Shown in pieces: positions 23,608-41,652 of a stretch of DNA of 64,000 bases. The translations under genes were made by a program, and so were the position numbers. The stretch lies in the sequence record ON568341.1, one strand, 5' to 3'. The stretch is from Escherichia phage UE-S1. Under the pieces are notes generated by a model, which did no database searches, had not been told where the DNA came from, and worked only from the letters and a program-made list of their open reading frames with translations. Within the stretch, counting starts at the first letter, position 1. Every line of letters begins with the position of its first letter.

Positions 23608-23661
23608 GTTTTACATCGAGAGCGGGAACACTTCCCTACTCACTTTTAAGAGATTAAAACG

Positions 23662-24024
23662 ATGGCGACTCAAATCACTAAAATCATTGCTAACCTGGTT
23701 AACTTCCGCGACGATATGAAAGATCTTCCGGCGGCAACGGTTAAAACTCACATTGACGCATACCGCGAACTGATTAAAATGTTGCCGCTTAAGCGTGAAC
23801 AATACGCCGCTAAACTGATGCTTGATGCGATGATCCATAAGATGATCGCCAGTGATTTGACGATGGTTTATCAGTATATGGGCGAAAATTTCGCGGTGTA
23901 TAGTAAACCAGTACCAGGAATGGAAAGTACAGAAGTATTACACGGTTTAAATTTAAAACAAGATGCATGGGATAATATGCCTCGTTTCCTGGTATGGGCT
24001 GACAGTGGCAAAATTTACGAATAA
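23662..24024 (+). CDS. hypothetical early protein (120 aa)
   Basis: ORF after promoter + leader hairpin; AAGAGA SD-like. Confidence 0.55.
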   Translation: MATQITKIIANLVNFRDDMKDLPAATVKTHIDAYRELIKMLPLKREQYAAKLMLDAMIHKMIASDLTMVYQYMGENFAVYSKPVPGMESTEVLHGLNLKQDAWDNMPRFLVWADSGKIYE

Positions 24025-24037
24025 GTTAAAAATTAGT

Positions 24038-24065
24038 TTGACAGTACTGAATAAAAGCGTATAAT
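24038..24065 (+). promoter_or_regulatory. early sigma70-type promoter
   Basis: TTGACA(24038-24043), 16 nt spacer, TATAAT(24060-24065). Confidence 0.55.
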
Positions 24066-24116
24066 GTTTTACATCAGGTGGGGAATAGTTCCCCACTATA
24101 TAAGAGGATTAAAAAA

Positions 24117-24356
24117 ATGGCTAAATCAAAAATGTTCTTAGGTCACAAAAACAAAACTCATTGGAATGTAAGCCTGTGGATTAATAACGATGAGGGATTG
24201 TATCGGTTGGCCCTGGACTTTATTGCCGCCCATACTAATCGCAATGATGCGGCCCGTCATATGATGTTATTTTTAGAACAGACTGGACAAGATAAAACAC
24301 CGGACGGATTCAAATATAGCACTACTGCGATCCGTGCGGCGATGGTTGGAATGTAA
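24117..24356 (+). CDS. hypothetical early protein (79 aa)
   Basis: ATG 24117 after AAGAGGA SD; paralog of 26157..26396 (KNKTHWNVSLWINN..TPDGFKYSTTAIRAAMVGM). Confidence 0.55.
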   Translation: MAKSKMFLGHKNKTHWNVSLWINNDEGLYRLALDFIAAHTNRNDAARHMMLFLEQTGQDKTPDGFKYSTTAIRAAMVGM

Positions 24357-24442
24357 TAGAATTTATTTAAAGTACTATCATTTTTTTGCGATAGTACTTT
24401 ATAATAGTGTTTTATTCATACACCAACGATAAGGGCAACAGC

Positions 24443-24709
24443 ATGAATATTAAGTATTTTGCGACGCGTGAACAAGCTCGGATCGCCGCACGCCAGGACG
24501 GGGCAACGTTTAAAGATATGGGCGTACAATCGGAACGTGGTAAACGTTGGGCCATTGTAAAGCGTAGTACCGCCAGATCATTACAGTACTGGTTAGCGGC
24601 CTTAAAAAGTCCCGATAGTGTATCGCGTCGAGTGGTAGAAATAAAGCTCGACCGAAAGGGCAACCGCGTGACTGTGTACCGTACTAAAAAGATTGCAGTA
24701 CTTGAATAA
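24443..24709 (+). CDS. hypothetical early protein (88 aa)
   Basis: ATG 24443; paralog of 36151..36546 (FATREQARIAARQ..DRKGNRVTVY). Confidence 0.5.
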   Translation: MNIKYFATREQARIAARQDGATFKDMGVQSERGKRWAIVKRSTARSLQYWLAALKSPDSVSRRVVEIKLDRKGNRVTVYRTKKIAVLE

Positions 24710-24716
24710 AAAGTAC

Positions 24717-24744
24717 TTGCAAACTATGTTTAAAGGCGTATAAT
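24717..24744 (+). promoter_or_regulatory. early sigma70-type promoter
   Basis: TTGCAA(24717-24722), 16 nt spacer, TATAAT(24739-24744); leader hairpin GCGGGAACTCTTCCCGC. Confidence 0.55.
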
Positions 24745-24796
24745 GTTTTACATCGAGAGCGGGAACTCTTCCCGCCTATAACCTGGAGTAATAAAA

Positions 24797-25027
24797 ATGA
24801 CTAATATGTATATGACTGAAGTTAAAACCGTAAAAGATACTACCACGAATAAAACTACTTACTTACAGCGGATCTGTGGTGTATGGCAACGTATCAGCAA
24901 ATCAAAGTACTTTAAATTAACATCATATGCAAACCGTTCGGATTCATTCAGTACTGAAATAAAAGGTAATAAAGTACACCAATACGGCACTTATTATTAT
25001 TACAGCCTGGACGCGATTGCAGTATAA
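24797..25027 (+). CDS. hypothetical early protein (76 aa)
   Basis: ORF after promoter/hairpin; GGAG SD. Confidence 0.5.
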   Translation: MTNMYMTEVKTVKDTTTNKTTYLQRICGVWQRISKSKYFKLTSYANRSDSFSTEIKGNKVHQYGTYYYYSLDAIAV

Positions 25028-25278
25028 TCATATTTTTTGAAAAATTTACAATTGCCGGTATTGACTTATTTTGTCAGTACTGGCATAATGTATTCATTGG
25101 CAGATAAGCCGTAGCCCATAGGGTGCGGGAGTGTATCTATAGAAAAATTAGTTTAGTATAGTTACAATTGTGCACCCGGTGGGTTAGCTGTTGTCATGGG
25201 GTATATTATGCCAGTACTTGATAATGCTGTCAATACTTTTTTTACTATTCAGTACTGAAAACTATTTTTAAAAAGTAC

Positions 25279-25306
25279 TTGCTAACTATGTTTAAAGGCG
25301 TATAAT
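25279..25306 (+). promoter_or_regulatory. early promoter (upstream of tandem promoter pair)
   Basis: TTGCTA, 16 nt spacer, TATAAT(25301-25306). Confidence 0.5.
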
Positions 25307-25400
25307 GTTTTACATCAGGACGGGGAACGAAATAAGTAACCCCGTTAAGTAGTCCAGGAGTAAGACATACGAAAAACTCCCCTGATAAAATAGTTTGACA
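25301..25400. repeat. 100-bp exact repeat (copy 1) carrying structured leader
   Basis: Appears identical by eye to 35214..35313. Confidence 0.7.
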
Positions 25401-25422
25401 AATGTTTTTAAAAGCGTATAAT
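25395..25422 (+). promoter_or_regulatory. early promoter (downstream of tandem promoter pair)
   Basis: TTGACA(25395-25400), 16 nt spacer, TATAAT(25417-25422). Confidence 0.5.
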
Positions 25423-25454
25423 ACTTACATCAACTACTGAATGAGGGTTACAAA

Positions 25455-26066
25455 ATGAAAACTATCACTACTACTACTTTTGTTATGGCTTTTTCTGAAC
25501 TGAACGCAGAACAAAAAACGGCGGCTATCGAACTGGTTCGGGATCGTGAGCGTTCATGTGAGGATAATTTCTTTGCTGAGGGCGTTATCGAGTACTATAA
25601 AGAAACAGTACTACCAGAATACGGCATAGATGAAGCTGAATTGCAATACAGTGGTTTTTGGTCGCAAGGTGACGGTGCATCAATCAGTACTGACAGCGTG
25701 GACGCGGAGAAGTTTTTACGCAAGATTAAAGCGTTAACGAAATATCGTTCTATCCGTCACTTGTTGAATGAAGATGATTTGGCAATGAGTGTAGAACGTT
25801 CACACTCTCGCTACGCACACGAAAACACGGTAAGCGGTTGCGTTGATACTCGCTACACTGATTTAACTGTAAAACAAGCGGCACTTGCTGATGACCTGGA
25901 AAACTTACTGACTGATGCGATCCGTGAATTATCTCGTAAGTTGTACCGTGATTTAGAGAATGCATATGAGGATCAATTCACTACTGAAAACATTACTGCA
26001 CTGATTGAGGGTAACGAATATCAATTCAATGTTATTGATGGCGTAGTGGAATCAATCGAATATTAA
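25455..26066 (+). CDS. hypothetical early protein (203 aa)
   Basis: ORF after dual promoters; GAGGG SD. Confidence 0.55.
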   Translation: MKTITTTTFVMAFSELNAEQKTAAIELVRDRERSCEDNFFAEGVIEYYKETVLPEYGIDEAELQYSGFWSQGDGASISTDSVDAEKFLRKIKALTKYRSIRHLLNEDDLAMSVERSHSRYAHENTVSGCVDTRYTDLTVKQAALADDLENLLTDAIRELSRKLYRDLENAYEDQFTTENITALIEGNEYQFNVIDGVVESIEY

Positions 26067-26078
26067 TTCAAAAAGTAC

Positions 26079-26106
26079 TTGTAAACTAAGTTTAAAAGCG
26101 TATAAT
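26079..26106 (+). promoter_or_regulatory. early sigma70-type promoter
   Basis: TTGTAA, 16 nt spacer, TATAAT(26101-26106); hairpin GCGGGGAGTGGTTCCCCGC. Confidence 0.5.
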
Positions 26107-26156
26107 ACTTTACATCAAGGCGGGGAGTGGTTCCCCGCTCAAACGAGGATTTAAAA

Positions 26157-26396
26157 ATGGCTAGTACTAAAACTTACAACGGACACAAAAACAAAACTCA
26201 TTGGAATGTAAGCCTTTGGATTAATAACGGTGAGTCATTGTATCGGCTTGCACAAAGTTGCATCGCACAAAGTAGAACTAAAGATATTGCTGCGGAATGT
26301 ATGTACCGCAGATTAAAAGCCAACGGTACTACTACAACACCGGACGGATTCAAATATAGCACTACTGCGATCCGTGCTGCAATGGTTGGAATGTAA
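26157..26396 (+). CDS. hypothetical early protein (79 aa)
   Basis: ATG 26157 after ACGAGGA SD; paralog of 24117..24356. Confidence 0.55.
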   Translation: MASTKTYNGHKNKTHWNVSLWINNGESLYRLAQSCIAQSRTKDIAAECMYRRLKANGTTTTPDGFKYSTTAIRAAMVGM

Positions 26397-26453
26397 TATT
26401 CAGTACTGAGATAATGGCGGGTAATAGTTCCCGCCTTTACTGAGGGTTATCTA

Positions 26454-26714
26454 ATGAGTAAAGTAATTAGCTATACAGCACTAAGCAAGACATTATCTAT
26501 TAGCCAGTGCACCGATGGTTATTGGCTATTTGATGAAACGCGTGGCATGAATTTAGCCATGCGTGCAAAAACTGCTGAGGCGGCGTATCTTGAAGCATTG
26601 GAATACTACCAGGAACGTTTAAAGGAAGTAGAAGAAGATTATAAAAGCCTCAAAGCGAAAGTAGATCATTTCGTCGGTCAATTCATCGAGGAAGACGACG
26701 ACAAACAATATTGA
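26454..26714 (+). CDS. hypothetical early protein (86 aa)
   Basis: ORF with GAGGG SD. Confidence 0.5.
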   Translation: MSKVISYTALSKTLSISQCTDGYWLFDETRGMNLAMRAKTAEAAYLEALEYYQERLKEVEEDYKSLKAKVDHFVGQFIEEDDDKQY

Positions 26715-26722
26715 AAAAGTAC

Positions 26723-26750
26723 TTGCAATTAGTTTTCAGTACTGTATAAT
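26723..26750 (+). promoter_or_regulatory. early sigma70-type promoter
   Basis: TTGCAA(26723-26728), 16 nt spacer, TGTATAAT(26743-26750). Confidence 0.55.
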
Positions 26751-26800
26751 GGTTTACATCAAAGGGAGAAATGGTTCTCCCTGGTAATGAGGAAAATAAA

Positions 26801-27022
26801 ATGGCTAATATCACTACTCTTTCCCAACTGGAAGCACTGGTGAAATCTATGCGGGAACATGCCGACAAAATCGGCGTACAAGATCCAGCCGTTTGCTTCT
26901 GCGACGAATTGAATGATGATACACTGGTAATAGCAGAAGTCCAGGACGTTTCTAACTATTCCTCGCGTTACACTGGCGGCGTAGCAAATAAAGGCGACTT
27001 CTGTTTATACCTTACAAAATAA
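26801..27022 (+). CDS. hypothetical early protein (73 aa)
   Basis: ATG 26801 after TGAGGAAA SD and leader hairpin GGGAGAAATGGTTCTCCC. Confidence 0.5.
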   Translation: MANITTLSQLEALVKSMREHADKIGVQDPAVCFCDELNDDTLVIAEVQDVSNYSSRYTGGVANKGDFCLYLTK

Positions 27023-27190
27023 CAACGCGGGGAGATAATAACTCCCCGTTACTTTTTCAGTACTGAATCATTTAATAGACGGATCTCGGCACCCGGTGGG
27101 TTAGTGACTGTTTCGTCTTGATGTAGTAATTATGCCAGTACTGGATGCACTTGTCAACAACTATTTTTCAAATACTTTTTATTAAAATAC

Positions 27191-27218
27191 TTGCAATTAG
27201 TTTTTAAACGCGTATAAT
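27191..27218 (+). promoter_or_regulatory. early sigma70-type promoter
   Basis: TTGCAA(27191-27196), 16 nt spacer, TATAAT(27213-27218). Confidence 0.55.
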
Positions 27219-27265
27219 GTTTTGCATAGGGGGAGCGGTTCCCCTGGTAACTAAGGAATAAGAAA

Positions 27266-27502
27266 ATGCTCGAACAAATCAAATCAACGTCTGCGAATGT
27301 AACGGGAACTGTATCACACTTTACTAGTGATGAATCGCGTGGTGTTCCTTATTGTGCTGTACATGTAAACACTGATGGCAACTACTGGTTTACGGTTTAC
27401 GGATCATATTCATTTGGTCGGCCAGGACATCAAAAAATCCTGGATAAAGTACAGCCAACGGGTAAAAATATCACTGCTGAAATGTTTTATAAAAAATCAT
27501 AA
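27266..27502 (+). CDS. hypothetical early protein (78 aa)
   Basis: ORF after leader hairpin GGGGGAGCGGTTCCCC; AAGGAA SD. Confidence 0.5.
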   Translation: MLEQIKSTSANVTGTVSHFTSDESRGVPYCAVHVNTDGNYWFTVYGSYSFGRPGHQKILDKVQPTGKNITAEMFYKKS

Positions 27503-27507
27503 AGTAC

Positions 27508-27535
27508 TTGATAATAGTTTTTAGTACTGTATAAT
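27508..27535 (+). promoter_or_regulatory. early sigma70-type promoter
   Basis: TTGATA, 16 nt spacer, TGTATAAT(27528-27535). Confidence 0.5.
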
Positions 27536-27586
27536 ATTTTACATCGCAAGGGGGAGCGGTTCCCCCTGGTAACTAAGGATAATAAA

Positions 27587-27886
27587 ATGAAAATTGCAAT
27601 CATCGCCCTGGCTTTATCTGTTTCCTCTTTCGCTGTTAATGCGTCATTAGATGTAAGTAGTGAAAAATTCATTCAGTGCACTGTTGCAATGACCGATGAA
27701 AGTACTGGCGAGATTGTATTAAAGGATTTAGAGATCCAGCCGGAAGCATTTAAAAACGGCCCGTTCCATGAAGAAGACGAAAACGGTAGCACATCAATTT
27801 ATTATGATGCCAGTACTAAACGCGGTTCGGTCACTGTAATGGATACTGAGAAAGTAACGCATACCGGCGTTATTAATTGCCGTTGA
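27587..27886 (+). CDS. small secreted/periplasmic protein (signal peptide)
   Basis: N-term MKIAIIALALSVSSFAVNA-S resembles Sec signal peptide with AxA cleavage site. Confidence 0.5.
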   Translation: MKIAIIALALSVSSFAVNASLDVSSEKFIQCTVAMTDESTGEIVLKDLEIQPEAFKNGPFHEEDENGSTSIYYDASTKRGSVTVMDTEKVTHTGVINCR

Positions 27887-27907
27887 TAGATACTACGGGG
27901 TAACATC

Positions 27908-28138
27908 ATGACTAAGCGAATTGTTTTACTTAACGAAAGCAGTACTACACAACTACTTAACGCCGTGCATTATGATATTGAAACGAGCGTTAATCTTATC
28001 AGTACTGTAGTACTGTTGGACACTGGAAAGGTCGCCAATGATAAAGCGATTGCAGGTATATTAACGGATCTTGAGCCTGGTAGCAGTGCACCAATAACGT
28101 TAAATGGTAAAGTGTTTAATATTTTACTCACTGATTAA
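27908..28138 (+). CDS. hypothetical early protein (76 aa)
   Basis: ORF with GGGG SD-like; followed by terminator. Confidence 0.45.
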   Translation: MTKRIVLLNESSTTQLLNAVHYDIETSVNLISTVVLLDTGKVANDKAIAGILTDLEPGSSAPITLNGKVFNILLTD

Positions 28139-28144
28139 GTACAT

Positions 28145-28166
28145 AGCCCACCTGGTGGGCTTTTTT
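28145..28166 (+). terminator. intrinsic terminator
   Basis: AGCCCACCTGGTGGGCT hairpin + TTTTTT. Confidence 0.6.
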
Positions 28167-28220
28167 GTTTTTGTAGTATCGTAGTACTGAGATACTTTGA
28201 AAATAGTTTTAAGAAAGTAG

Positions 28221-28248
28221 TTGACATTACCGCAGAAAAGCGTAGAAT
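28221..28248 (+). promoter_or_regulatory. early sigma70-type promoter
   Basis: TTGACA(28221-28226), 16 nt spacer, TAGAAT; followed by ~120 nt structured leader. Confidence 0.45.
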
Positions 28249-28371
28249 GTATTACATCAAGACGGGGAGCACTAAGTAGACCGCCAGTAAGTCGAACGAA
28301 AAACTGGACACGTCGAGAAAACTTTGATACACTAATAAACGTAAACTAAACTTTAATTGAGGATTTATAAA

Positions 28372-28854
28372 ATGGCTAATGTAAAATCATTTCTGAAAGC
28401 ACTGATTTCTAACGACACTGCTATTGCGGCTGAATTGCTGGCGGATCTGGATAGCGATACCATGAAAGCAGTACGCAACAATTTTAACATTGCGTACAGT
28501 GAAGCTAAAGAACTGCAAGCCAAAAAGATAGCAGAACTGGAAGAACAGAAAAAAGCCCGTGAAGAAGAACTACAAGCAACGATTGAAAGTATTCAGGCGG
28601 CGGTTGCAGGGTTGGATCTGGAAGTAGTTATTGAAATGGCACATAAAGCACTGGCAGTTAAGTACGGGGAAGATAAGCCAGTAACTAAACCTAAAAAATG
28701 GATTCAGGAACGCGTAACGGTTGTTCTTGATAATGGCGAGGAACATTTAATTCCCGTGCGTGGTAACTGCATTGCGGTAGTTCTGGATGCTATCAAAGAA
28801 AGCGGATTGACTCGCGAGGAATGGATCGAAGCTCACCGCAAAATTGAAGCATAA
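28372..28854 (+). CDS. hypothetical early protein (160 aa)
   Basis: ATG 28372 after TGAGGA SD; track ORF 28357 trimmed. Confidence 0.5.
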   Translation: MANVKSFLKALISNDTAIAAELLADLDSDTMKAVRNNFNIAYSEAKELQAKKIAELEEQKKAREEELQATIESIQAAVAGLDLEVVIEMAHKALAVKYGEDKPVTKPKKWIQERVTVVLDNGEEHLIPVRGNCIAVVLDAIKESGLTREEWIEAHRKIEA

Positions 28855-28875
28855 CAATTAAAGTACTGAATCACT

Positions 28876-28902
28876 AGCCCACTTCTTATAGTGGGCTTTT
28901 TT
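28876..28902 (+). terminator. intrinsic terminator
   Basis: AGCCCAC-ttcttata-GTGGGCT hairpin + TTTTTT. Confidence 0.6.
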
Positions 28903-29129
28903 GTGTTTATCGTTTACCAGTCCACTAGCACCGCCTAGAATCGATTCTAACGCATTAAACTGATTATCTGATGAATAGCCCTAGCTGGTGGCGTTAATGC
29001 CGTTAGAAAGCGATTGAGGACGTTTAAAGTATTTTGCAAAAAGTAATAAAAAGTACTTGCACGATTAAGAGATTAGAGTATAATTAATTACATCAAGACA
29101 AGACACCTTAACTAACTGAGGATATAAAG

Positions 29130-29282
29130 ATGAATACTTATGAACTGGATTGTTTCACTTTACAAGTAATGTCAGTATGCAGTAAAAAAGATTGGTCATC
29201 AAAGGAATTTAAAGCAGTTATTGCGTGTGCAAAACACGGCAAGACTATCAATGAAACGGCATCAATCATTGATAAACTTTAA
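29130..29282 (+). CDS. small early protein (50 aa)
   Basis: TGAGGA SD; preceded by TTGCAC..TATAAT promoter; under ORF-track cutoff. Confidence 0.4.
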   Translation: MNTYELDCFTLQVMSVCSKKDWSSKEFKAVIACAKHGKTINETASIIDKL

Positions 29283-29290
29283 AAAATAGT

Positions 29291-29319
29291 TTGACAATAG
29301 TTTTAAGTACTGCGATAAT
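29291..29319 (+). promoter_or_regulatory. early sigma70-type promoter
   Basis: TTGACA(29291-29296), 17 nt spacer, GATAAT. Confidence 0.45.
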
Positions 29320-35731: not shown

Positions 35732-36055
35732 ATGGCTATGATCCTTACCCAGAAAGTAGAACTGAAAATTGTAACCTCCTTTGACATTAAAGTTAATCGG
35801 TGGACTGATAGCCACGGCAATACTTACCACTCCTGCTACGTGTCCGCATTGATTGGTGATCGCTGGGAAGACCTGGGACACGAAACCTTTACATACGGTT
35901 ACGGCACACAAGGCGAGTACACGGGTTTAGAAATCATTAAGGAAACTGTAATAGGTTTCAACCCGAAAGAGAAAGTACTACACAGAATTGAGAAAGAGAT
36001 CAACAAAGAAATTACAGTTCGCTACTACGATGTAAAACGTAAGAAAGACATGTAA
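35732..36055 (+). CDS. hypothetical early protein (107 aa)
   Basis: AGAGAGAGAAA SD after hairpin; paralog of 29894..30238. Confidence 0.55.
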   Translation: MAMILTQKVELKIVTSFDIKVNRWTDSHGNTYHSCYVSALIGDRWEDLGHETFTYGYGTQGEYTGLEIIKETVIGFNPKEKVLHRIEKEINKEITVRYYDVKRKKDM

Positions 36056-36150
36056 TAGAATCCATTTAAAGTACTATTTGACATTGCCCAGATAGTACTT
36101 TATAATAGACTCTAACTTGTAGTACTAACTCAACTAATAGGATGTATACC

Positions 36151-36546
36151 ATGATTACTAAATTCTACGCTACCCGTGAAGCTGCCCGTATTGTTGCACG
36201 CGAGGAAGGAGCAGCATTTAAAGACATGGGCAAAGATGCAACGAAAGGTCAACGCTGGGCCGTACAGTTCAAAGAAATCTCTGATATTGTGAATTCACCT
36301 GAGCCAGTACTGACAGCAGCAGAACTAAAACGAGCGGATATGCTGGCGGCAATACTTGACGCACAAGATGAGTTTATCGCTGACTCTGATATCAAAGTAC
36401 AGGTAAACCACACCGCATGGACTCACGCGGATCACCTGGCAAACCTTAAGCGTCCAAGTGAACTGATTCGCAACCAGAAAGAGATCCGACATGATCGTAA
36501 GGGTAATCGTGTAACAGTATACAGTAAACGCCGCCAGGTTATCTAA
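36151..36546 (+). CDS. hypothetical early protein (131 aa)
   Basis: ATG 36151 after AGGA; paralog of 24443..24709; followed by hairpin GGCGGGA..TCCCGCC + T-run. Confidence 0.55.
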   Translation: MITKFYATREAARIVAREEGAAFKDMGKDATKGQRWAVQFKEISDIVNSPEPVLTAAELKRADMLAAILDAQDEFIADSDIKVQVNHTAWTHADHLANLKRPSELIRNQKEIRHDRKGNRVTVYSKRRQVI

Positions 36547-36607
36547 TAACTTGCAGTACTAACAACACGGCGGGATCAGTTCCCGCCTTTTTTATAGGAC
36601 AAACAAA

Positions 36608-36862
36608 ATGATTAAGGTTCAACTATATAAAGATAACATCTTACGGGTACACTATAAAGCACCTCAGAGAATCATCACAAAGGCCGTACAGCTTGCTAAT
36701 GAGTTTATTAATGGTAACCTATTACCTAGGAAGTTAAGCAACGGAAAACTGCGTGTAATCGACGTGGACACTAACAACAGGATAGTAATCGAGAACACAG
36801 GAAAAATAAACCTATATGAACACCAACAATACAATAAGAAAATAAAACTAATATCACGTTGA
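36608..36862 (+). CDS. hypothetical early protein (84 aa)
   Basis: ORF with AGGA SD-like. Confidence 0.45.
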   Translation: MIKVQLYKDNILRVHYKAPQRIITKAVQLANEFINGNLLPRKLSNGKLRVIDVDTNNRIVIENTGKINLYEHQQYNKKIKLISR

Positions 36863-36915
36863 CAGTACTCAAATGTTTTAGTATTATGTACACATACCAA
36901 CACGGGAGAAACAAA

Positions 36916-37134
36916 ATGAAATTATCTAAAATCGAAAAGAAAACTATTGATGAAGCAGTTAAGCACGGTTATACCTTTCGTAATGATTCACATTTTACCA
37001 ATTTTCAACAGGGGTATCGTACTATTAAAAAACTAATTGACAAAGGTTTATTAGTTGAAGTCAATAATGGGAACGGTATCGAGTATCAGCCAACCCAAGA
37101 CGCATTATCTTTAAAGAAATATAATATTATCTAA
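36916..37134 (+). CDS. hypothetical early protein (72 aa)
   Basis: ATG 36916 after GGGAGAAA; promoter TTGACA(36860)..TATTAT upstream. Confidence 0.5.
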   Translation: MKLSKIEKKTIDEAVKHGYTFRNDSHFTNFQQGYRTIKKLIDKGLLVEVNNGNGIEYQPTQDALSLKKYNII

Positions 37135-37191
37135 TTGACAGTACTCAAATGTTTTAGTACTATATGTACATACCAACACGGGGGAAACAAA

Positions 37192-37434
37192 ATGATTACT
37201 TTAGAAAAACGTATCAAAGAAACTACATCGCTGGTGGAACTGTTAACAGTACTCAAATGTAAAACAACACCATTTAGCACGCCGGACTTTATTAATATGG
37301 TTGATGTTAATGGTCGCTATCGTATCACGGTCGAACAAGGAGCGGCGAAAGTATTCAGTACTAAAAACACGAAGGAAGTGATCCACGCCGTTAATGTTAA
37401 AAAAGTAGTTGCCATTGATAGTAAAGTACTGTAA
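37192..37434 (+). CDS. hypothetical early protein (80 aa)
   Basis: ATG 37192 after GGGGGAAA; promoter/leader duplicated from 36859-36915. Confidence 0.5.
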   Translation: MITLEKRIKETTSLVELLTVLKCKTTPFSTPDFINMVDVNGRYRITVEQGAAKVFSTKNTKEVIHAVNVKKVVAIDSKVL

Positions 37435-37465
37435 TATAGTTTCATTAACTCAAGGAGAACATGCA

Positions 37466-38050
37466 ATGCGTAATTATACTAAATTCATCCGTACACTGTC
37501 AGAAATGGAAACCAACAAAGAGATCCTTTCAGCTTGTCGGTTAGCTGGCCTGGAGATCATCGGTGCTGGTTCTTCCCGTATAGTTTTCGCTTTAAATGAT
37601 CGGTTAGTGATTAAGGTCGCGAATTGTGATGCGGGTGTAGAACAAAATGAAACTGAATGTAAGGTATGGAATTTTTTAGACTATGACCGCCCTCAGTTGA
37701 AACAGTACTTTGCAAAGGTGCATATGCATTTATGCGATCCTGATAATATGTTTATCGTTATGGATCGGTTGAGTACTGCAAGCAAAGGTAGTGTGAAGCA
37801 CGTAAACGCGTGCAATGAATTAAAGTACAATATTAAACGTAATGCAATCGAACGCCATCACCGCTTTGCTGATGCACTACAACACGTCGATGATACATTA
37901 TCAACACTAACGATAAGAGATATCAGAAAACAGAATATCGGCCAGGATCGTAATGGCCTTATTAAAGTACTTGATTACGGTTTAACCTGCAATATCTGGA
38001 ATCAGTACTATAAAAAGCGTGATGTGGCAGCAAGTAAGGTAACACGATAA
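37466..38050 (+). CDS. protein-kinase-like protein (194 aa)
   Basis: G-loop-like GAGSSRIVF, VIKVA lysine motif, RDIRKQNIG catalytic-loop-like, KVLDYG DFG-like; AAGGAGAA SD. Confidence 0.55.
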   Translation: MRNYTKFIRTLSEMETNKEILSACRLAGLEIIGAGSSRIVFALNDRLVIKVANCDAGVEQNETECKVWNFLDYDRPQLKQYFAKVHMHLCDPDNMFIVMDRLSTASKGSVKHVNACNELKYNIKRNAIERHHRFADALQHVDDTLSTLTIRDIRKQNIGQDRNGLIKVLDYGLTCNIWNQYYKKRDVAASKVTR

Positions 38051-38067
38051 AAAAGATTAAAAAAGGG

Positions 38068-38105
38068 ATTGACTCCGGTCAGTCCCTTTGCTATTATATA
38101 TCCAT
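38068..38105 (+). terminator. terminator hairpin with embedded promoter (composite element)
   Basis: AAAAAAGGGATTGACTCCGGTCAGTCCCTTTGCTATTATATA. Confidence 0.55.
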
Positions 38106-38191
38106 TGAGAGATAACTCACTGACCCATAGGGTGCGGAAGTGTATCTATTATATAAGTATTCAGTACTGAAAACTATTTTTAAAAAAGTAC

Positions 38192-38219
38192 TTGCAAACT
38201 ATCTCAATGAGCGTATAAT
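38192..38219 (+). promoter_or_regulatory. early sigma70-type promoter
   Basis: TTGCAA(38192-38197), 16 nt spacer, TATAAT(38214-38219). Confidence 0.55.
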
Positions 38220-38274
38220 GTTTTATATCGAGAGGGGGAAATGGTTCTCCCTAGTACTAAAAGGAATCAAGACG

Positions 38275-38496
38275 ATGACTACTATGACCTGCGTTCACGC
38301 TTCAAATCTTCTGAATGATGCAGCATTTAAAGCAGGTGAAGAATATCAATGCTATCGGGATGAAAATAAAAAAGTTTTTGTAGTTGATAATAATGGTTTC
38401 CATATTGAATTACAATCCGGCTTCACTGGTTTAAATGGTAAATCAGTATGGGGCGTACAGGATGATAAAGGTACATATCATTTTAAACGTAATTAA
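38275..38496 (+). CDS. hypothetical early protein (73 aa)
   Basis: ATG 38275 after AAAAGGAAT SD and leader hairpin GGGGGAAATGGTTCTCCC. Confidence 0.5.
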   Translation: MTTMTCVHASNLLNDAAFKAGEEYQCYRDENKKVFVVDNNGFHIELQSGFTGLNGKSVWGVQDDKGTYHFKRN

Positions 38497-38577
38497 GTAT
38501 TGACAAAGTATATCAGTACTGTATAATAGTTTACATCAAGGGGAGAATGGTTCTCCCCACTAAAAGGAAACAAAATT

Positions 38578-38850
38578 ATGTCCAGCTACTCCGCTACTAT
38601 GATCATTAAAGATATGAACGGTAATCCTACTTCTGCTGGTGGATCATTTGGAAACATTAATTTAGATGGTCGGTTATCCATGCAATCAGCCATCGATGCA
38701 GCGAAAGAAGTTTTTAAGAATGAATGTACTGTTAGTAAGCTGGATTATATGGGTTTCGCTATCGAGAAAACTACTCGTTTTGTGAACTACAAAAATCCAC
38801 TGATGATTGATACTAACCTGAAAGCTAACGAAGTGGGGTACTTATTATGA
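38578..38850 (+). CDS. hypothetical early protein (90 aa)
   Basis: AAAAGGAAA SD after hairpin; promoter TTGACA..TGTATAAT. Confidence 0.55.
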   Translation: MSSYSATMIIKDMNGNPTSAGGSFGNINLDGRLSMQSAIDAAKEVFKNECTVSKLDYMGFAIEKTTRFVNYKNPLMIDTNLKANEVGYLL

Positions 38851-39038
38851 CAGTAGAAGAAGTAAAAAAAGTACTGGCAGTACTACGATATCATAATCAT
38901 TGCAAGGTGAAGAATGATCCTGATTATCTTGATTCATCCCTGGAGGAAGACACCTTGAACGCTATAAGCCATATGCAGACATTAGCAAAGCGTATGACTG
39001 AAAAGAACATGCCGGACTATATCGGAAATAAAATTTAA
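38847..39038 (+). CDS. hypothetical early protein (63 aa)
   Basis: ATGA overlap with previous gene. Confidence 0.45.
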   Translation: MTVEEVKKVLAVLRYHNHCKVKNDPDYLDSSLEEDTLNAISHMQTLAKRMTEKNMPDYIGNKI

Positions 39039-39124
39039 AAAGTACTTGCATTGTAGTTAGATTAACGTATAATGTTTTATATCGAGAGGGGAAATGGTTT
39101 CCCCTCAAGTCCAGGAGATACACC

Positions 39125-39388
39125 ATGAACACTATCGAAATCACTATCAATGCACACGTATACGACAACGTAGTACTGCAAACTACTATGACCGCCAATG
39201 ATACCAGTACTTTGCGGAATACTGTTATTAGTGCTGTATGTGCCGCTATCGGTGATGTATCCCTGGAAAATTCAGAACACATCAACAACGGTTTCACTAT
39301 GTGCAAACGTGATAACGCAAAACATATCATCGTGGAAGGTTACGGCGGTGTAGAATTTAATGTTTATATGAAAAAAGTACTTGCATAA
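39125..39388 (+). CDS. hypothetical early protein (87 aa)
   Basis: CAGGAGA SD after hairpin GGGGAAATGGTTTCCCC. Confidence 0.5.
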   Translation: MNTIEITINAHVYDNVVLQTTMTANDTSTLRNTVISAVCAAIGDVSLENSEHINNGFTMCKRDNAKHIIVEGYGGVEFNVYMKKVLA

Positions 39389-39455
39389 TAACTAAAACAA
39401 AGTATAATGTTTTGCATAGGGGGAGATATCCTCCCCCACTAAAAGGAGTAATAAA

Positions 39456-39680
39456 ATGGCTAACTTTGATGAACTGATGCGGGAAGTAGCTTACCTGGCA
39501 GAAGAGAAGAAATCATTCGATTCTATCTATAACACCGCTCACCGTGATTCAGTACTGGCATGTAACCAGGATCAAAAAGATGAACTAATCGCCACCTATC
39601 ATGAAGCATGGAAGTACTACCGACAATGGGAGAAAGAAGAAAGTGAGTCTACCATTGACGGCCTCAATAATCTAATCTAA
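39456..39680 (+). CDS. hypothetical early protein (74 aa)
   Basis: AAAAGGAG SD after hairpin GGGGGAGATATCCTCCCCC. Confidence 0.5.
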   Translation: MANFDELMREVAYLAEEKKSFDSIYNTAHRDSVLACNQDQKDELIATYHEAWKYYRQWEKEESESTIDGLNNLI

Positions 39681-39756
39681 AAGTTTTATTTCAGTACTAT
39701 TGACATAGCTTGATAGTACTGATGTAATAACTTTACTAACTACAAGGGGAAACATA

Positions 39757-40014
39757 ATGGATCAATTCACACAATATCGGGTAAATCCTCAAGCTATGGC
39801 CTACGTAGAAGACCATAAAACGTTACCAGTACTGCAACCAGTTAAAGGCCGTATCTATCGTGGCCTTGCCTGGGATACGGCCCAGGATGGATATAAAACC
39901 GTCGCCGTGGGTATGTATTGCGGTGATGGTGAATGGTTTGATCCAAATAATCCGGTATCCATTGACAGTACTGAAAAAATGAAATGGGCCGACTACATCG
40001 AAGATATTTCATAA
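39757..40014 (+). CDS. hypothetical early protein (85 aa)
   Basis: AAGGGGAAA SD; promoter TTGACA..GATGTAAT. Confidence 0.5.
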   Translation: MDQFTQYRVNPQAMAYVEDHKTLPVLQPVKGRIYRGLAWDTAQDGYKTVAVGMYCGDGEWFDPNNPVSIDSTEKMKWADYIEDIS

Positions 40015-40104
40015 AAACTATTTGACAGTACTAACCAGTAATGTATAATGTTTTACATAGAGCGGGGGAATAGTTCTCCCGCCAATAGTTTGGAGTAAAA
40101 CATT

Positions 40105-40305
40105 ATGTCTATCGCTATCGCCCTGGTTGAAGTACTGAAAGAAGCTAAAGCCAACCTTATCGACGTAAAGATCCAGGAACTACAAAACGGCTTAATCGGC
40201 TGTACTTGTACCGCTGGTGGAGCGGCAGACTATCGAGAACACGAATCACTCGAATCACTGGTTCGGTATCTTACCATGATCGTTGATGATTGGAGAATCA
40301 TCTAA
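40105..40305 (+). CDS. hypothetical early protein (66 aa)
   Basis: TGGAG SD after hairpin GCGGGGGAATAGTTCTCCCGC. Confidence 0.5.
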   Translation: MSIAIALVEVLKEAKANLIDVKIQELQNGLIGCTCTAGGAADYREHESLESLVRYLTMIVDDWRII

Positions 40306-40322
40306 CAAAAAAGAATAAAAAA

Positions 40323-40360
40323 AGGGATTGACTCCGGTCAGTCCCTTTGCTATTATATAC
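40323..40360 (+). terminator. terminator hairpin with embedded promoter (composite element)
   Basis: AAAAAAAGGGATTGACTCCGGTCAGTCCCTTTGCTATTATATA. Confidence 0.55.
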
Positions 40361-40550
40361 GCATAGACAAAAACTAGCCCACAGGGTGCATAGGTGTATC
40401 CAAAATATATAGTTAATAACGGTGAGTAACTATCTGCTGGTGGAACTAAAACTATTAATAAAAAAGTATTGACAAAGTATATCAGTACTGCAATAATGTA
40501 TCTCGTAGGGCGGCAATGGTGCGACGGCCCACAAAGTTAGGAGATTCACC

Positions 40551-40883
40551 ATGAGTACTTCAATCGCTATCGTTAAAGCTTTCATCCGTACTAATGTTTC
40601 CTCTGTATTCATCGACGGCCTCGACCGTAACGTAGAATACTCAATCATTATCGCACAAACGGCAAACGGTTCTCGGTACATCCTGAATGATAGTGAAGCA
40701 AATCACTACTACTTCACTAAAGCCACTGGCTTTAAACGCATCGATGCTGATGTAGTATACGCTAAGATGAATAAGCTGGTAGACAAGATTAACGCGAAAG
40801 GTACTATCGATTTACAGTACTGGACCGAAACCGATCCAGAATATGGATCTCACCGCTACCTGAATCCAGGTATCAAAATGTAA
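40551..40883 (+). CDS. hypothetical early protein (110 aa)
   Basis: TAGGAGA SD; promoter TTGACA(40470)..TGCAATAAT. Confidence 0.5.
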   Translation: MSTSIAIVKAFIRTNVSSVFIDGLDRNVEYSIIIAQTANGSRYILNDSEANHYYFTKATGFKRIDADVVYAKMNKLVDKINAKGTIDLQYWTETDPEYGSHRYLNPGIKM

Positions 40884-40972
40884 AAAGTACTTGCATAGTA
40901 CTTAGATTCATGTATAATGTTTTACATAGAGAGGGGGAAATGGTTCTCCCTCCTAAATTAAGGAGTTTTATC

Positions 40973-41374
40973 ATGACCTTCTCAATCACTTCCTTCGCTG
41001 ACGTTTTAGTACTGGCCCGGACTTTTGGTAAAGCTGGCCTTGAGCACGCTGTAAGTAATGGTCATATGCACCCTGAATATTGCCGCATCATCGGTAGCTG
41101 CAAACGTTGGGCCGTGTCCCGTAACATTGAGATTGAAAACTTCAATGACGGCAACAACGAATATACAGTTGATGCAGTATTCGAAGCCGTTGATCTCGGC
41201 GGTATCTATAACACTAACCTGAATGATGTGCGTATCGTTCGCACGGGGTTCGGTGCTTATGATGTATCTATCCGTGAAGCTATGGACAAGGGATACATTA
41301 GCAAGGACCAGTTAGCTTACATCATGCAGCAAACTAAGGAACGTAACGAAGCACGTACTATCTTAGGGTTGTAA
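40973..41374 (+). CDS. hypothetical early protein (133 aa)
   Basis: ATG 40973 after TAAGGAG SD and hairpin GAGGGGGAAATGGTTCTCCCTCC. Confidence 0.55.
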   Translation: MTFSITSFADVLVLARTFGKAGLEHAVSNGHMHPEYCRIIGSCKRWAVSRNIEIENFNDGNNEYTVDAVFEAVDLGGIYNTNLNDVRIVRTGFGAYDVSIREAMDKGYISKDQLAYIMQQTKERNEARTILGL

Positions 41375-41442
41375 GCGTTACACATCACCAAACATCATAG
41401 GCCGCCTTGTAGCGGCCTTAACTATATCAGGAGTTCATACAC

Positions 41443-41652
41443 ATGAACTATACAGTATACAGCGTTCTAGGCACTATTGCAGGCGTACATGATAACGTCG
41501 ATGGTGCTATGCGTACAGTACTGCAACAGGTTCCACTAAAGCCTAAGACCATTAAGCAGATGACAGCACGACTAACCAGGGCGACGGCTGGCGTGGAAGT
41601 ATGGCAGGACTATGGGGATACACAGATAATCGTAAGCGTAACGAAGGATTAA
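41443..41652 (+). CDS. hypothetical protein (69 aa)
   Basis: CAGGAG SD; last gene of higher-GC block. Confidence 0.5.
   Translation: MNYTVYSVLGTIAGVHDNVDGAMRTVLQQVPLKPKTIKQMTARLTRATAGVEVWQDYGDTQIIVSVTKD

What the first reader, a model, noticed from the sequence alone, without database searches (positions are those of the whole stretch)
23640..41652. Compositional dichotomy: early block is markedly more GC-rich than the flanking paralog arrays
By eye, genes in 23.6-41.7 kb use GC-richer codons (e.g. ccg, gcg, ctg, cgt) and look like enterobacterial host genes, while the arrays on both sides are strongly AT-rich. Either the early block was acquired from a different source, or the arrays are under different mutational or selective regimes, for example rapid turnover with AT drift.
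Basis: seen in the sequence. Interest (0 to 1): 0.45.

Follow-up and report, generated by a model that had tools for sequence, protein, structure and literature searches.

The report
GC-richer early-gene terminal repeat of jumbo phage
The GC-richer block is the roughly 20-kb terminal repeat of an E. coli jumbo phage, packed with small genes that each have their own strong host-type promoter and use more host-like codons than the rest of the genome; this is a clear new example of a known pattern, not captured host DNA.

Summary
The compositional step is real but modest. GC is 0.383 in 21923-41804, against 0.322 to the right and 0.347 to the left, with steps at both edges.

The window comes from an Asteriusvirus-type E. 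coli jumbo phage. The block matches, end to end, the direct terminal repeat (DTR) confirmed by PhageTerm and restriction digests in phage fEgEco12. In a complete relative it is the GC-richest 20 kb of 352 kb, mainly at synonymous sites (GC3 0.37 vs 0.27).

It holds about 50 single-gene cassettes, each built as consensus sigma-70 promoter, 5' hairpin, ribosome-binding site, small ORF. Codon choice leans towards E. coli: CAI 0.41 vs 0.29, and half as many host-rare codons. The avoided codons are those read by the relative's tRNA genes. CAI rises with promoter strength.

The same pattern appears in a Klebsiella RaK2-like phage. Polarised substitutions put block and arrays each near their own GC equilibrium, so the difference is maintained rather than fading.

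The block is not host DNA: 38% vs 50-53% GC, and no match in 5,426 E. coli genomes. Some cassettes are shared with unrelated coliphage genera, with breakpoints in the promoter motifs.

Verdict: a new member of a known kind (early versus late codon partition), of moderate interest.

The parts
21923..41804 (+). Direct terminal repeat (single collapsed copy in this window), 19,882 bp; this is the GC-richer compartment
   Evidence: Window 21923 aligns to base 1 of vB_Ec-M-J and to the start of the right DTR copy of fEgEco12 (AGTAGGCAGAGGAAGTCTGCC...). Window 41804 aligns to the last base of the fEgEco12 record and to about the vB_Ec-M-J DTR end at 21525. The DTRs were defined by PhageTerm and restriction digests and are annotated in the record. 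GC steps occur at both edges.
21923..23640 (.). Largely non-coding leader of the repeat, GC about 0.375, dense in the palindrome TTCAGTACTGAA, with an exact 44-nt direct repeat at 23452-23495 and 23505-23548
23662..41652 (+). Array of about 45-50 single-gene early cassettes. Median ORF is 89 aa, median gap 81 nt, coding density 71%. GC1/2/3 = .480/.344/.368
   Evidence: CDS of the same size and spacing are annotated in relatives. Every block ORF tested against PHROGs matched a family.
24038..24065 (+). Example of a perfect 12/12 sigma-70 promoter (TTGACA-N16-TATAAT). The other perfect ones are at 25395, 32273, 33659, 35308, 35648, 36078, 38500 and 40022
   Evidence: In the equal-sized right flank there is 1 perfect match against 9 here, and 17 against 40 at 10/12 or better on the plus strand.
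35055..35092 (+). Composite stem-loop plus promoter repeat AAAGGGATTGACTCCGGTCAGTCCCTTTGCTATTATAT, in which the -35 lies inside the stem. Exact copies are at 38062 and 40321 and a variant at 31698
33394..33651 (+). DksA/TraR-type zinc-finger protein, a candidate modulator of host RNA polymerase
   Evidence: Pfam PF01258 E=3.5e-11; PHROG 54.
33659..34103 (+). GNAT acetyltransferase cassette (ORF 33716-34072), present here but absent from relative EC22.5-2. The indel breakpoints lie inside the promoter motifs
   Evidence: Pfam PF00583 E=4e-9; alignment of the junction.
35209..35720 (+). Cassette (ORF 35369-35644 with its own promoter and the next one) that is 91.9% identical over 517 nt to phage muut of the genus Justusliebigvirus
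7481..18024 (-). Left flank: 8 RCC1-like paralogs of about 380 aa (median 29% identity) plus one glycine-rich 245-aa ORF (11216-11953). Coding GC is 0.366 but GC3 only 0.232
41872..49151 (+). Right flank: tightly overlapping array in which 27 ORFs of 64-96 aa belong to one 28-member family (the 28th member is at 60711-60902). GC 0.32, coding density 95%
   Evidence: PHROG 4148 for one member.
56637..58934 (+). Second right-flank paralog family: 5 ORFs of about 150 aa

Best explanation
The block is the phage's roughly 20-kb direct terminal repeat. It is also the phage's immediate-early module, read by the host's own RNA polymerase.

It is built from about 50 self-contained cassettes. Each has an A/T-rich upstream element, a near-consensus sigma-70 promoter, a GC-rich stem-loop close to the 5' end of the transcript, a ribosome-binding site and a small ORF.

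These genes must be translated at once, before the phage's own tRNA genes can be expressed. They are therefore kept closer to host codon preferences. They avoid AGA, AGG, ATA, ACA and GGA, which the phage tRNAs read, and they favour CTG, CCG, GGC, ATC and CGC. This raises GC3.

Their proteins also use more Ala, Gly, Arg and Val, which raises GC1 and GC2.

A second contributor is that cassettes are gained, lost and swapped through recombination in the conserved promoter and hairpin motifs. Swapping extends to the early regions of unrelated coliphages of about 39-40% GC, so the block draws on a shared pool with its own composition.

Shown here: the identity with the DTR, the cassette anatomy, the codon statistics, conservation in a second genus, the compositional equilibrium and the cassette sharing. 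Inferred: early timing (by analogy with PA5oct and from the promoters), translational selection as the cause, and an mRNA-stabilising role for the 5' hairpin.
For: Identity: the block's ends align to the base with the DTRs of fEgEco12 (confirmed by PhageTerm and restriction digests) and vB_Ec-M-J.

Early module: there are 9 perfect and 40 at-least-10/12 plus-strand sigma-70 matches in the block, against 1 and 17 in an equal length of right flank. There are 27 terminator-like hairpins against 11.8 expected. In relative EC22.5-2, 10 of the 30 perfect promoters lie in the block, which is 6% of the genome. In PA5oct most DTR genes are early and highly transcribed, and that phage depends on host RNAP. 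The CBB authors also suspected that its repeat continues the early region.

Outlier status: in the 352-kb relative the block is the GC maximum (0.388, against 0.338 +/- 0.012 elsewhere; next highest 0.370). GC3 is 0.372 vs 0.265 (p=1.6e-17).

Host-like codons: CAI with E. coli ribosomal and elongation-factor gene weights is 0.41, against 0.29 in the arrays (p=6e-12), 0.35 in the core and 0.47 for average E. coli genes. RSCU correlation with E. coli is +0.38 for the block and -0.24 for the arrays. Six host-rare codons occur 36 times per 1000 codons, against 70-77 in the window's other blocks, 69 in the relative's arrays and 56 in its core. The block-minus-arrays shift tracks E. coli preference after controlling for GC-ending codons (partial r about 0.5, p about 1e-5). 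Among GC-ending codons, only host-preferred ones rise (+0.118 vs -0.003).

tRNAs: the relative's 7 tRNAs (Gly-UCC, Ser-UGA, Arg-UCU, Ser-ACU, Met/Ile-CAU, Asn-GUU, Thr-UGU) read GGA, TCA, AGA, AGT, ACA and possibly ATA. These are the codons depleted in the block.

Within the block, promoter score correlates with CAI (Spearman 0.56, p=6e-5) but barely with GC3 (0.28, p=0.06).

Conservation: the Klebsiella RaK2-like phage OU509535.1 has a 20-kb block at the same position relative to the few shared DNA matches, with GC 0.36 vs 0.26-0.31, GC3 0.33 vs 0.21, 21 strong promoters, CAI 0.41 vs 0.30/0.35, and the same codon shifts. Only two 68%-identical DNA matches link its block to the window's.

Maintenance: GC* is 0.366 (CI 0.338-0.393) in the block and 0.312 (0.279-0.339) in the array, bootstrap P=0.004.

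Cassette flux.

Hairpins: 5' UTR stems of -11.5 to -16 kcal/mol have different sequences but the same position.
Against: The shift is not confined to synonymous sites. GC1, GC2, the intergenic DNA (0.351 vs 0.28-0.30) and the non-coding leader (0.375) are all raised. Pure translational selection does not predict this.

Against the core genes the shift is mostly a generic rise of GC-ending codons. The partial correlation with E. coli preference is only 0.09-0.18 and not significant.

CGG, a minor codon in E. coli, is strongly enriched in the block: 8 per 1000 codons, against 0-0.6 elsewhere in the phage sets and 3.7 in E. coli.

A second cluster of perfect sigma-70 promoters at the right genome end of the relative (296-349 kb) has ordinary composition (GC 0.31-0.35, CAI 0.34). 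Promoter type alone therefore does not predict the dialect.

No expression data exist for this phage. The tRNA set comes from a relative, because the window holds no credible tRNA gene. ORFs were called mechanically.
Confidence: 0.6

Rival explanations
1. The composition is inherited rather than selected in place. The terminal repeat is a landing pad for promoter-bounded cassettes that circulate among enterobacterial phages of about 39-40% GC. Constant replacement keeps the block at the composition of that pool.
For: Nine of 45 block ORFs have homologs (33-84% aa identity) in one 3.5-kb early-type stretch of a Phapecoctavirus whose genome GC is 0.389 and whose GC3 in that stretch is 0.36-0.37. 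None of 94 other small ORFs do. One cassette is 91.9% identical to phage muut, whose locus has GC 0.403. About 180 non-Asteriusvirus records match the block by megablast, against essentially none for the arrays. A cassette indel has its breakpoints in the promoters.
Against: ORFs with such homologs are not significantly GC3-richer than the other block ORFs (0.386 vs 0.355, p=0.24). Point substitutions inside aligned DNA already balance at GC* 0.366, without invoking replacement. The dialect is identical in a Klebsiella phage whose block shares almost no DNA with this one. CAI tracks promoter strength.
Confidence: 0.2
2. A neutral, position-linked process raises GC across the whole repeat irrespective of coding. 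One candidate is GC-biased repair or gene conversion during the recombination between the two terminal copies that accompanies circularisation or concatemer formation.
For: Both compositional steps coincide with the repeat's ends. All three codon positions, the intergenic DNA and the non-coding leader are raised. Against core genes the shift is generic to GC-ending codons, including non-preferred CGG. T5's terminal repeat is also richer than the adjacent early region (GC3 0.394 vs 0.318).
Against: Against the arrays, only host-preferred GC-ending codons rise. CTC, CCC, GTC, GGG, TCG and TTG do not. CAI correlates with promoter strength independently of GC3. The Phapecoctavirus early-type stretch also has raised GC3, although it lies mid-record at 79-82 kb; the position of that phage's termini was not checked. 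From general knowledge, biased gene conversion has not been established in phages.
Confidence: 0.12
3. The anomaly lies in the arrays, not the block. Rapidly duplicating paralog arrays drift towards AT, and the block is simply normal phage DNA.
For: The right array diverges 2.6 times faster (0.208 vs 0.080) and has a lower equilibrium GC* of 0.312. The genome-wide 20-kb GC minimum (0.317) lies in the arrays of the relative.
Against: The arrays (0.31-0.33) lie within the normal range of the relative's genome (0.338 +/- 0.012). The block (0.388) is about 4 sd above it and is the genome maximum. Array GC3 (0.27-0.30) is in fact higher than core GC3 (0.19-0.24).
Confidence: 0.05
4. The block is a recent capture of enterobacterial host or prophage DNA that has not yet ameliorated.
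For: Codon choice is shifted towards E. coli.
Against: There is no match in 5,426 complete E. coli genomes. GC is 38% against 50-53%. The substitution spectrum is balanced, with no GC>AT excess beyond that of the arrays (Fisher p=0.80). The block is conserved in position and character in another genus. The proteins match phage-only PHROG families.
Confidence: 0.03

Closest known systems
Long direct terminal repeats of RaK2-like/Asteriusvirus jumbo phages: fEgEco12 20,993 bp, vB_Ec-M-J 21,525 bp, CBB 22,456 bp, PA5oct 39,080 bp
   Same: The block is homologous and colinear with these repeats and has identical end sequences. It holds about 50 small ORFs, and PA5oct's DTR genes are transcribed early.
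   Different: The papers read here (PMC13070987, PMC5259590, PMC7318152) do not report that the repeat is the GC and GC3 maximum of the genome, or that it has a host-leaning codon dialect. This window holds only one collapsed copy.
Early versus late codon-usage partition in phages, with phage tRNAs serving later genes: Mioduser et al. 2017 (PMC5683454), Sf14 (PMC12482277), and classic T4 work by Cowe and Sharp 1991 (from memory)
   Same: Early-class genes differ in synonymous usage and lie closer to the host tRNA pool. The phage tRNAs read the codons used more by the other genes.
   Different: Here the partition is spatially sharp and coincides with the terminal repeat. It also involves GC1, GC2 and non-coding DNA. 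A second promoter-rich region does not share it.
PeSL (promoter-early stem-loop) cassettes of T4-like phages: Arbiol et al. 2010 (PMC2839356), Comeau et al. 2014 (PMC4122927)
   Same: Small ORFs are flanked by conserved composite early-promoter and stem-loop motifs. Indels and exchanges have their breakpoints inside the motifs.
   Different: This is a different phage lineage, and the cassettes sit in a terminal repeat rather than in internal hyperplastic regions. Most stem-loops lie downstream of the promoter, in the 5' UTR, rather than acting as upstream terminators. Exchange crosses genera (Asteriusvirus with Justusliebigvirus and Phapecoctavirus). The motif sequences were not compared with T4-type PeSLs.
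T5 first-step-transfer terminal repeat (pre-early genes), and the SPO1 host-takeover module in its terminal redundancy (SPO1 from memory)
   Same: A terminal repeat carries the first-expressed genes, transcribed by host RNAP. T5's repeat is annotated as entering first, and it is also GC3-richer than the adjacent early region (0.394 vs 0.318).
   Different: There is no sequence homology. Nothing here shows two-step DNA entry, and no injection-stop signal was identified. The repeat is 20 kb with about 50 genes, against 10 kb with about 17 in T5.

Membership tests
Asteriusvirus/RaK2-like direct terminal repeat | Homologous and colinear with a repeat whose ends were determined by PhageTerm and confirmed by restriction digests, with matching end sequences | tested here: met
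   Window 21923 aligns to base 1 of vB_Ec-M-J and to the right-DTR start of fEgEco12. Window 41804 aligns to the end of the fEgEco12 record. Termini were determined by PhageTerm plus restriction digests.
Asteriusvirus/RaK2-like direct terminal repeat | Present at both ends of the packaged genome (twofold read depth) | not testable with these tools
   The window runs straight through both junctions with a single copy, as in a collapsed or circularised assembly. No reads are available.
Immediate-early module transcribed by host RNA polymerase | Sigma-70-type promoters enriched, co-oriented with the genes and placed just upstream of them | tested here: met
   There are 106 promoter-like sites against 68.2 +/- 8.4 expected, and 9 perfect matches. 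At 10/12 or better there are 40 on the plus strand and 7 on the minus strand. Twenty-seven of 49 ORFs have such a site in the gap just upstream. The right flank shows no enrichment (105 vs 122 expected).
Immediate-early module transcribed by host RNA polymerase | Transcripts appear first after infection | not testable with these tools
   The only support is by analogy: in PA5oct the DTR genes are early by RNA-seq.
Early/late codon partition with complementary phage tRNAs | The early class is closer to host codon usage than other classes | tested here: met
   CAI is 0.41, against 0.29 in the arrays and 0.35 in the core. RSCU correlation with E. coli is +0.38 vs -0.24 and +0.05. The result is replicated in a Klebsiella phage.
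Early/late codon partition with complementary phage tRNAs | Phage tRNAs decode codons used more by the non-early genes | tested here: met
   This was tested in relative EC22.5-2. The relevant fractions in the window's block vs its right arrays are AGA .09 vs .39, ACA .19 vs .50, GGA .18 vs .29, AGT .27 vs .37 and ATA .11 vs .34. The assignment of ATA to tRNA-CAU is an assumption. The window itself has no credible tRNA.
PeSL-type mobile regulatory cassettes | Conserved composite early-promoter and stem-loop motif flanking small ORFs | tested here: met
   The cassette consensus is described. A stem-loop/promoter composite occurs four times. The 5' UTR stems are stable.
PeSL-type mobile regulatory cassettes | Indel and exchange breakpoints fall within the motifs | tested here: met
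   The GNAT cassette indel relative to EC22.5-2, and the ends of the homology with phage muut. Only two cases were examined.
PeSL-type mobile regulatory cassettes | Motif homologous to those of T4-like phages and located in T4-type hyperplastic regions | not tested
   No sequence comparison with T4-type PeSLs was made. The lineage and location differ, so this is filed as 'works like' and not as a member.
Horizontally captured host (enterobacterial) DNA | Sequence similarity to host genomes | tested here: not met
   No megablast match in 5,426 complete E. coli genomes.
Horizontally captured host (enterobacterial) DNA | Host-like base composition, or a substitution spectrum decaying towards the recipient's composition | tested here: not met
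   GC is 0.38 against 0.50-0.53. AT>GC 519 vs GC>AT 568, with GC* 0.366 close to the present value.

The most novel reading that the evidence does not exclude
The terminal repeats of RaK2-like jumbo phages may be the local docking site of a cross-genus pool of self-contained 'sigma-70 promoter, 5' hairpin, small gene' cassettes shared among enterobacterial phages (Asteriusvirus, Phapecoctavirus, Justusliebigvirus, rV5-like). On this reading the cassettes keep their own host-tuned composition whatever genome they sit in. The GC and codon dialect would then mark a mobile early-gene pool rather than a property of the phage. A terminal-repeat-linked GC-biased process could still contribute. The roughly 8- to 20-fold over-represented AGTACT/CAGTACTG palindrome would be a jumbo-phage-specific control or packaging site layered on top.
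Probability: 0.3. Interest if true: 0.6.

Novelty: new member of a known kind. Interest (0 to 1): 0.35.

Why it matters
The result gives a simple sequence-only signature for locating the terminal repeat and immediate-early module in the many Asteriusvirus and RaK2-like genomes deposited as collapsed or arbitrarily opened assemblies. The signature is a GC3 and CAI peak, low coding density and dense consensus promoters.

It marks about 50 small genes as the likely host-takeover set.

It suggests that codon dialect is tuned to the moment of expression relative to phage tRNA supply.

It shows that promoter-bounded cassette shuffling, described for T4-like phages, also operates in jumbo-phage terminal repeats and across genera.

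It does not overturn anything. Early versus late codon differences and early genes in terminal repeats are both established.

Tried and rejected
Host origin: the whole repeat was searched against 5,426 E. coli genomes with no match, so this was rejected.

Recent import with amelioration: polarised substitutions are balanced, so this was rejected as the main cause.

Arrays as the outlier: rejected on the genome-wide profile of EC22.5-2.

GC-rich hairpins or promoters as the source of the excess: rejected, because coding GC (0.397) exceeds intergenic GC (0.351).

Known RNAs: Rfam at gathering threshold found nothing in the window. The single ARAGORN call, tRNA-Cys(ACA) at 58070-58154, lies inside an ORF and is probably false.

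Coverage figures, where relatives appear to cover only 40-50% of the block, were not used.

The recursive GC segmentation with my threshold merged 11.2-44.4 kb, because the Gly-rich RCC1-array genes raise total GC. GC3 separates them.

Pfam gave functions for only 2 of 10 block proteins. PHROGs named a function for one of the nine block proteins tested, the DksA-like zinc finger; the other eight matched families of unknown function.

Failed calls with no consequence: searches (range limits; file and module errors), and the end.

The large protein searches, structure prediction and metagenome scans were not used, because they would not bear on a compositional question.

Full report
**1. What the window is.** Megablast places the window in the Asteriusvirus group of E. 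coli jumbo phages (PBECO4, 121Q, slurp01). The best relatives are 88-93% identical. The left flank carries 'regulator of chromosome condensation' (RCC1-like) genes. The right flank carries dozens of small hypothetical genes.

**2. The observation.** GC is 0.384 in the finding's coordinates, 0.322 to the right, 0.349 to the left and 0.349 overall. The difference is far beyond chance:
- Chi2 p=1e-39 against the right flank and 2.5e-14 against the left.
- A step at each edge: 0.334 to 0.381 on the left and 0.425 to 0.340 on the right.

Per gene, coding GC is 0.397 in the block and 0.32 in the right arrays. The difference is 4-6 points, so 'markedly' overstates it.

The left RCC1 array is not AT-rich overall (0.366). 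Its Gly-rich proteins raise GC2 to 0.466, while its GC3 is only 0.232. One glycine-rich ORF at 11216-11953 produces the 11-13 kb bump.

Paralogy of both flanks is real. There are 8 RCC1-like genes on the left. On the right there is a 28-member family of 64-96 aa ORFs at 41872-49151, plus smaller families. The block itself has only four paralog pairs.

**3. What the block is.** In vB_Ec-M-J the homologous stretch is annotated 'Direct Terminal Repeats 1-21525'. In fEgEco12 a 20,993-bp DTR was found by PhageTerm and confirmed by restriction digests (PMC13070987).
- Base 1 of vB_Ec-M-J and the first base of fEgEco12's right copy (AGTAGGCAGAGGAAGTCTGCC...) align to window 21923.
- The last base of fEgEco12 aligns to window 41804.

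The repeat therefore occupies 21923-41804 (19,882 bp). The finding's coordinates run from its first gene to its last. An unbiased likelihood split places the right compositional edge at 41800. The window reads straight through both junctions, so it comes from an assembly with the repeat collapsed.

**4. Anatomy.** The block has 71% coding density with median gaps of 81 nt. The arrays have 95% density and overlapping genes.

The gaps hold near-consensus sigma-70 promoters:

| Plus-strand sigma-70 matches | Block | Equal length of right flank |
|---|---|---|
| Perfect (12/12) | 9 | 1 |
| At least 10/12 | 40 | 17 |

Terminator-like hairpins number 27, against 11.8 expected.

The recurring cassette is: AAAAAGTAC, then TTGACA or TTGCAA, N16 ending in AGTACTG, TATAAT, GTTTTACATCAA, a GC-rich stem-loop, ACTAAGAGGAAA, then ATG. 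Six predicted 5' UTRs fold into stems of -11.5 to -16 kcal/mol. The stems begin 6-13 nt from the putative 5' end (position 8 in most) and leave the ribosome-binding site free. Their sequences differ but their position is conserved. A role in mRNA stabilisation is my inference.

A second motif puts the -35 element inside a 12-bp stem, with three exact copies and one variant.

Few proteins have recognisable functions: a DksA/TraR zinc finger, a GNAT acetyltransferase and a sub-threshold kinase-like match. Every block protein tested against PHROGs matched a family; all of those families except the DksA-like one (phrog_54) are of unknown function.

In the related Pseudomonas jumbo phage PA5oct the 39-kb DTR holds 105 genes. 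Most of gp34-gp105 are highly transcribed early, and the phage depends on host RNA polymerase (PMC7318152). The CBB authors likewise suspected that its 22.5-kb repeat continues the early region (PMC5259590).

**5. Genome-wide context.** I fetched a complete, unannotated relative, EC22.5-2 (351,992 bp, GC 0.341), to which the window maps colinearly.
- Its homologous block is the GC maximum of the whole genome. The best 20-kb window is 0.388, against 0.338 +/- 0.012 elsewhere and a next-best of 0.370. The minimum, 0.317, lies in the arrays.
- At gene level the block differs most at synonymous sites: GC3 0.372 vs 0.265 (p=1.6e-17). GC1 is .467 vs .423 and GC2 is .343 vs .309.
- GC3 declines from the block (0.35) through the adjacent arrays (0.27-0.30) to the core of long genes (0.19-0.24).

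The block is therefore the outlier, not the arrays.

**6. Codon dialect.** Reference sets came from E. coli K-12: 29 ribosomal-protein, elongation-factor and rpoA genes, and 34 housekeeping genes.

| Gene set | CAI (E. coli highly expressed weights) | Six host-rare codons per 1000 |
|---|---|---|
| Block (window) | 0.41 | 36 |
| Right arrays (window) | 0.29 | 77 |
| RCC1 array (window) | 0.29 | 72 |
| Arrays (relative) | 0.30 | 69 |
| Core (relative) | 0.35 | 56 |
| Average E. coli genes | 0.47 | 17 |

- The block-versus-arrays CAI difference has p=6e-12.
- RSCU correlation with E. coli is +0.38 for the block, -0.24 for the arrays and +0.05 for the core.
- Enriched in the block: CTG, CCG, GCG/GCC, CGC, GGC, ATC, AGC.
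- Depleted: AGA, AGG, ATA, ACA, GGA, TTG.
- Host-rare codons counted are AGA, AGG, ATA, CTA, CGA and GGA.
- The block-minus-arrays shift follows E. coli preference after controlling for GC-ending codons (partial r about 0.5). Among GC-ending codons only host-preferred ones rise (+0.118 vs -0.003).

The relative's seven tRNAs are Gly-UCC, Ser-UGA, Arg-UCU, Ser-ACU, Met/Ile-CAU, Asn-GUU and Thr-UGU. They read the codons the block avoids.

Within the block, promoter score predicts CAI (rho 0.56, p=6e-5) much better than it predicts GC3 (rho 0.28).

Points that do not fit:
- Against core genes the shift is mostly generic to GC-ending codons.
- CGG is oddly enriched.
- Non-coding DNA of the block is also GC-richer.
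- A second cluster of perfect promoters at 296-349 kb of the relative has ordinary composition.

**7. Conservation and equilibrium.** A Klebsiella RaK2-like phage (OU509535.1, GC 0.320) has a 20-kb block at the same position relative to the few shared DNA matches, with these properties:
- GC 0.36, against flanks of 0.26-0.31.
- GC3 0.33, against about 0.21.
- Coding density 0.70-0.80.
- 21 strong promoters.
- CAI 0.41, against 0.30 and 0.35, and the same codon shifts.

Only two 68%-identical DNA matches link its block to the window's.

I polarised substitutions in a three-way alignment of the window, EC22.5-2 and vB_Ec-M-J.

| Compartment | AT>GC | GC>AT | Equilibrium GC* (CI) | Present GC | Divergence |
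|---|---|---|---|---|---|
| Block | 519 | 568 | 0.366 (0.338-0.393) | 0.387 | 0.080 |
| Right array | 306 | 325 | 0.312 (0.279-0.339) | 0.325 | 0.208 |

The two equilibria differ (bootstrap P=0.004), and the array diverges 2.6 times faster. The two compartments are each close to their own equilibrium, so the difference is being maintained.

**8. Source of the genes.** The block has no match in 5,426 complete E. coli genomes and is 12-15 GC points below E. coli DNA. It is therefore not host DNA.

However, 224 phage records match it by megablast, whereas only 35-48 match the flanks. The extra records are Phapecoctavirus, Justusliebigvirus and rV5-like phages.
- In a whole Phapecoctavirus genome, 9 of 45 block ORFs have homologs. 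All lie in one 3.5-kb stretch of small genes and low coding density, which is that genome's GC3 peak among full 10-kb bins. None of 94 other small ORFs have homologs (Fisher p=2e-5).
- Phage muut has the same cassette build. One of its cassettes is 91.9% identical over 517 nt to window 35209-35720, and the homology ends in the promoters.
- The GNAT cassette is present here and absent from EC22.5-2, with breakpoints inside the promoter motifs.

This is how PeSL cassettes behave in T4-like phages (PMC4122927; PMC2839356).

**9. Interpretation.** The best-supported account has four parts:
- The block is the terminal repeat and the immediate-early module.
- Its codon dialect is kept nearer to the host because its genes are translated before phage tRNAs are available.
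- Its proteins differ in amino-acid make-up: Ala, Gly, Arg and Val are all higher.
- Cassette exchange with other coliphages contributes.

A neutral repeat-linked GC bias cannot be excluded and would explain the non-coding shift. T5's first-step-transfer repeat shows a similar, weaker contrast (GC3 0.394 vs 0.318).

Early versus late codon partitions are already documented. This is therefore a clear new example of a known kind, not a new phenomenon.

Noticed in passing
whole window; densest in 21923-41804: The 8-bp palindrome CAGTACTG (context TTTCAGTACTGAAA) occurs 68 times, against 0.87 expected. The hexamer AGTACT occurs at 6.8 per kb in the repeat and 2.7 per kb elsewhere, against about 0.35 per kb from base composition. 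The enrichment is genome-wide in EC22.5-2 (919 AGTACT) and in a Klebsiella RaK2-like phage (945), peaking in the early block of both. It is absent from a Phapecoctavirus (9). It is a candidate binding site for a jumbo-phage-specific protein.
   Followed up: partly
window 35209-35720; L020 2501-3014: A whole promoter-gene-promoter cassette is 91.9% identical between this jumbo phage and phage muut (Justusliebigvirus, 146 kb). That is as close as the window is to its own genus. muut uses the same promoter, 5' hairpin and ribosome-binding-site build.
   Followed up: partly
window 23452-23495 and 23505-23548: An exact 44-nt tandem-like direct repeat, each copy carrying the TTCAGTACTGAA palindrome, lies in the non-coding 1.7-kb leader of the repeat. 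A 64-nt repeat pair is at 22997 and 23214.
   Followed up: no
window 23662-41652 (block ORFs): The CGG arginine codon occurs 8.4 times per 1000 codons in the block, against 0-0.6 everywhere else in the phage and 3.7 in E. coli. It is also raised in the Klebsiella phage block. Host-tRNA adaptation does not explain this.
   Followed up: no
window 11216-11953 (-): A 245-aa protein extremely rich in glycine (GGxGG runs) sits inside the RCC1-like array but is not a member of that family. It has GC 0.454 and GC2 0.598 and causes the local GC bump at 11-13 kb.
   Followed up: partly
window 58070-58154 (+): ARAGORN calls an 85-nt tRNA-Cys with anticodon ACA inside ORF 58022-58510. Rfam gives no tRNA hit at gathering threshold, so it is probably a false positive.
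   Followed up: partly
window 18061-21900 (+): There is a run of small ORFs (about 60-90 aa) just before the repeat. They are tyrosine-rich (9.3%), with very low GC2 (0.268) but GC3 (0.36) as high as in the repeat. Relatives annotate them as tightly packed small genes.
   Followed up: no
EC22.5-2 (L003-L010) 296-349 kb: Eleven further perfect 12/12 sigma-70 promoters, all on the plus strand, cluster at the right end of the relative's genome, next to the 7 tRNA genes (317-321 kb). Composition there is ordinary (GC 0.31-0.35, CAI 0.34).
   Followed up: partly
OU509535.1 (L015) 130-140 kb: A second GC-high 10-kb bin (0.376, GC3 0.318) with few short called ORFs, mostly on the minus strand, occurs in the Klebsiella phage. 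It was not examined.
   Followed up: no
T5 NC_005859.1 (L024) 1-10219: T5's first-step-transfer terminal repeat is also GC-richer than the adjacent early region (GC 0.400 vs 0.373; gene GC3 0.394 vs 0.318). This hints that the pattern may be general for terminal-repeat pre-early genes.
   Followed up: partly
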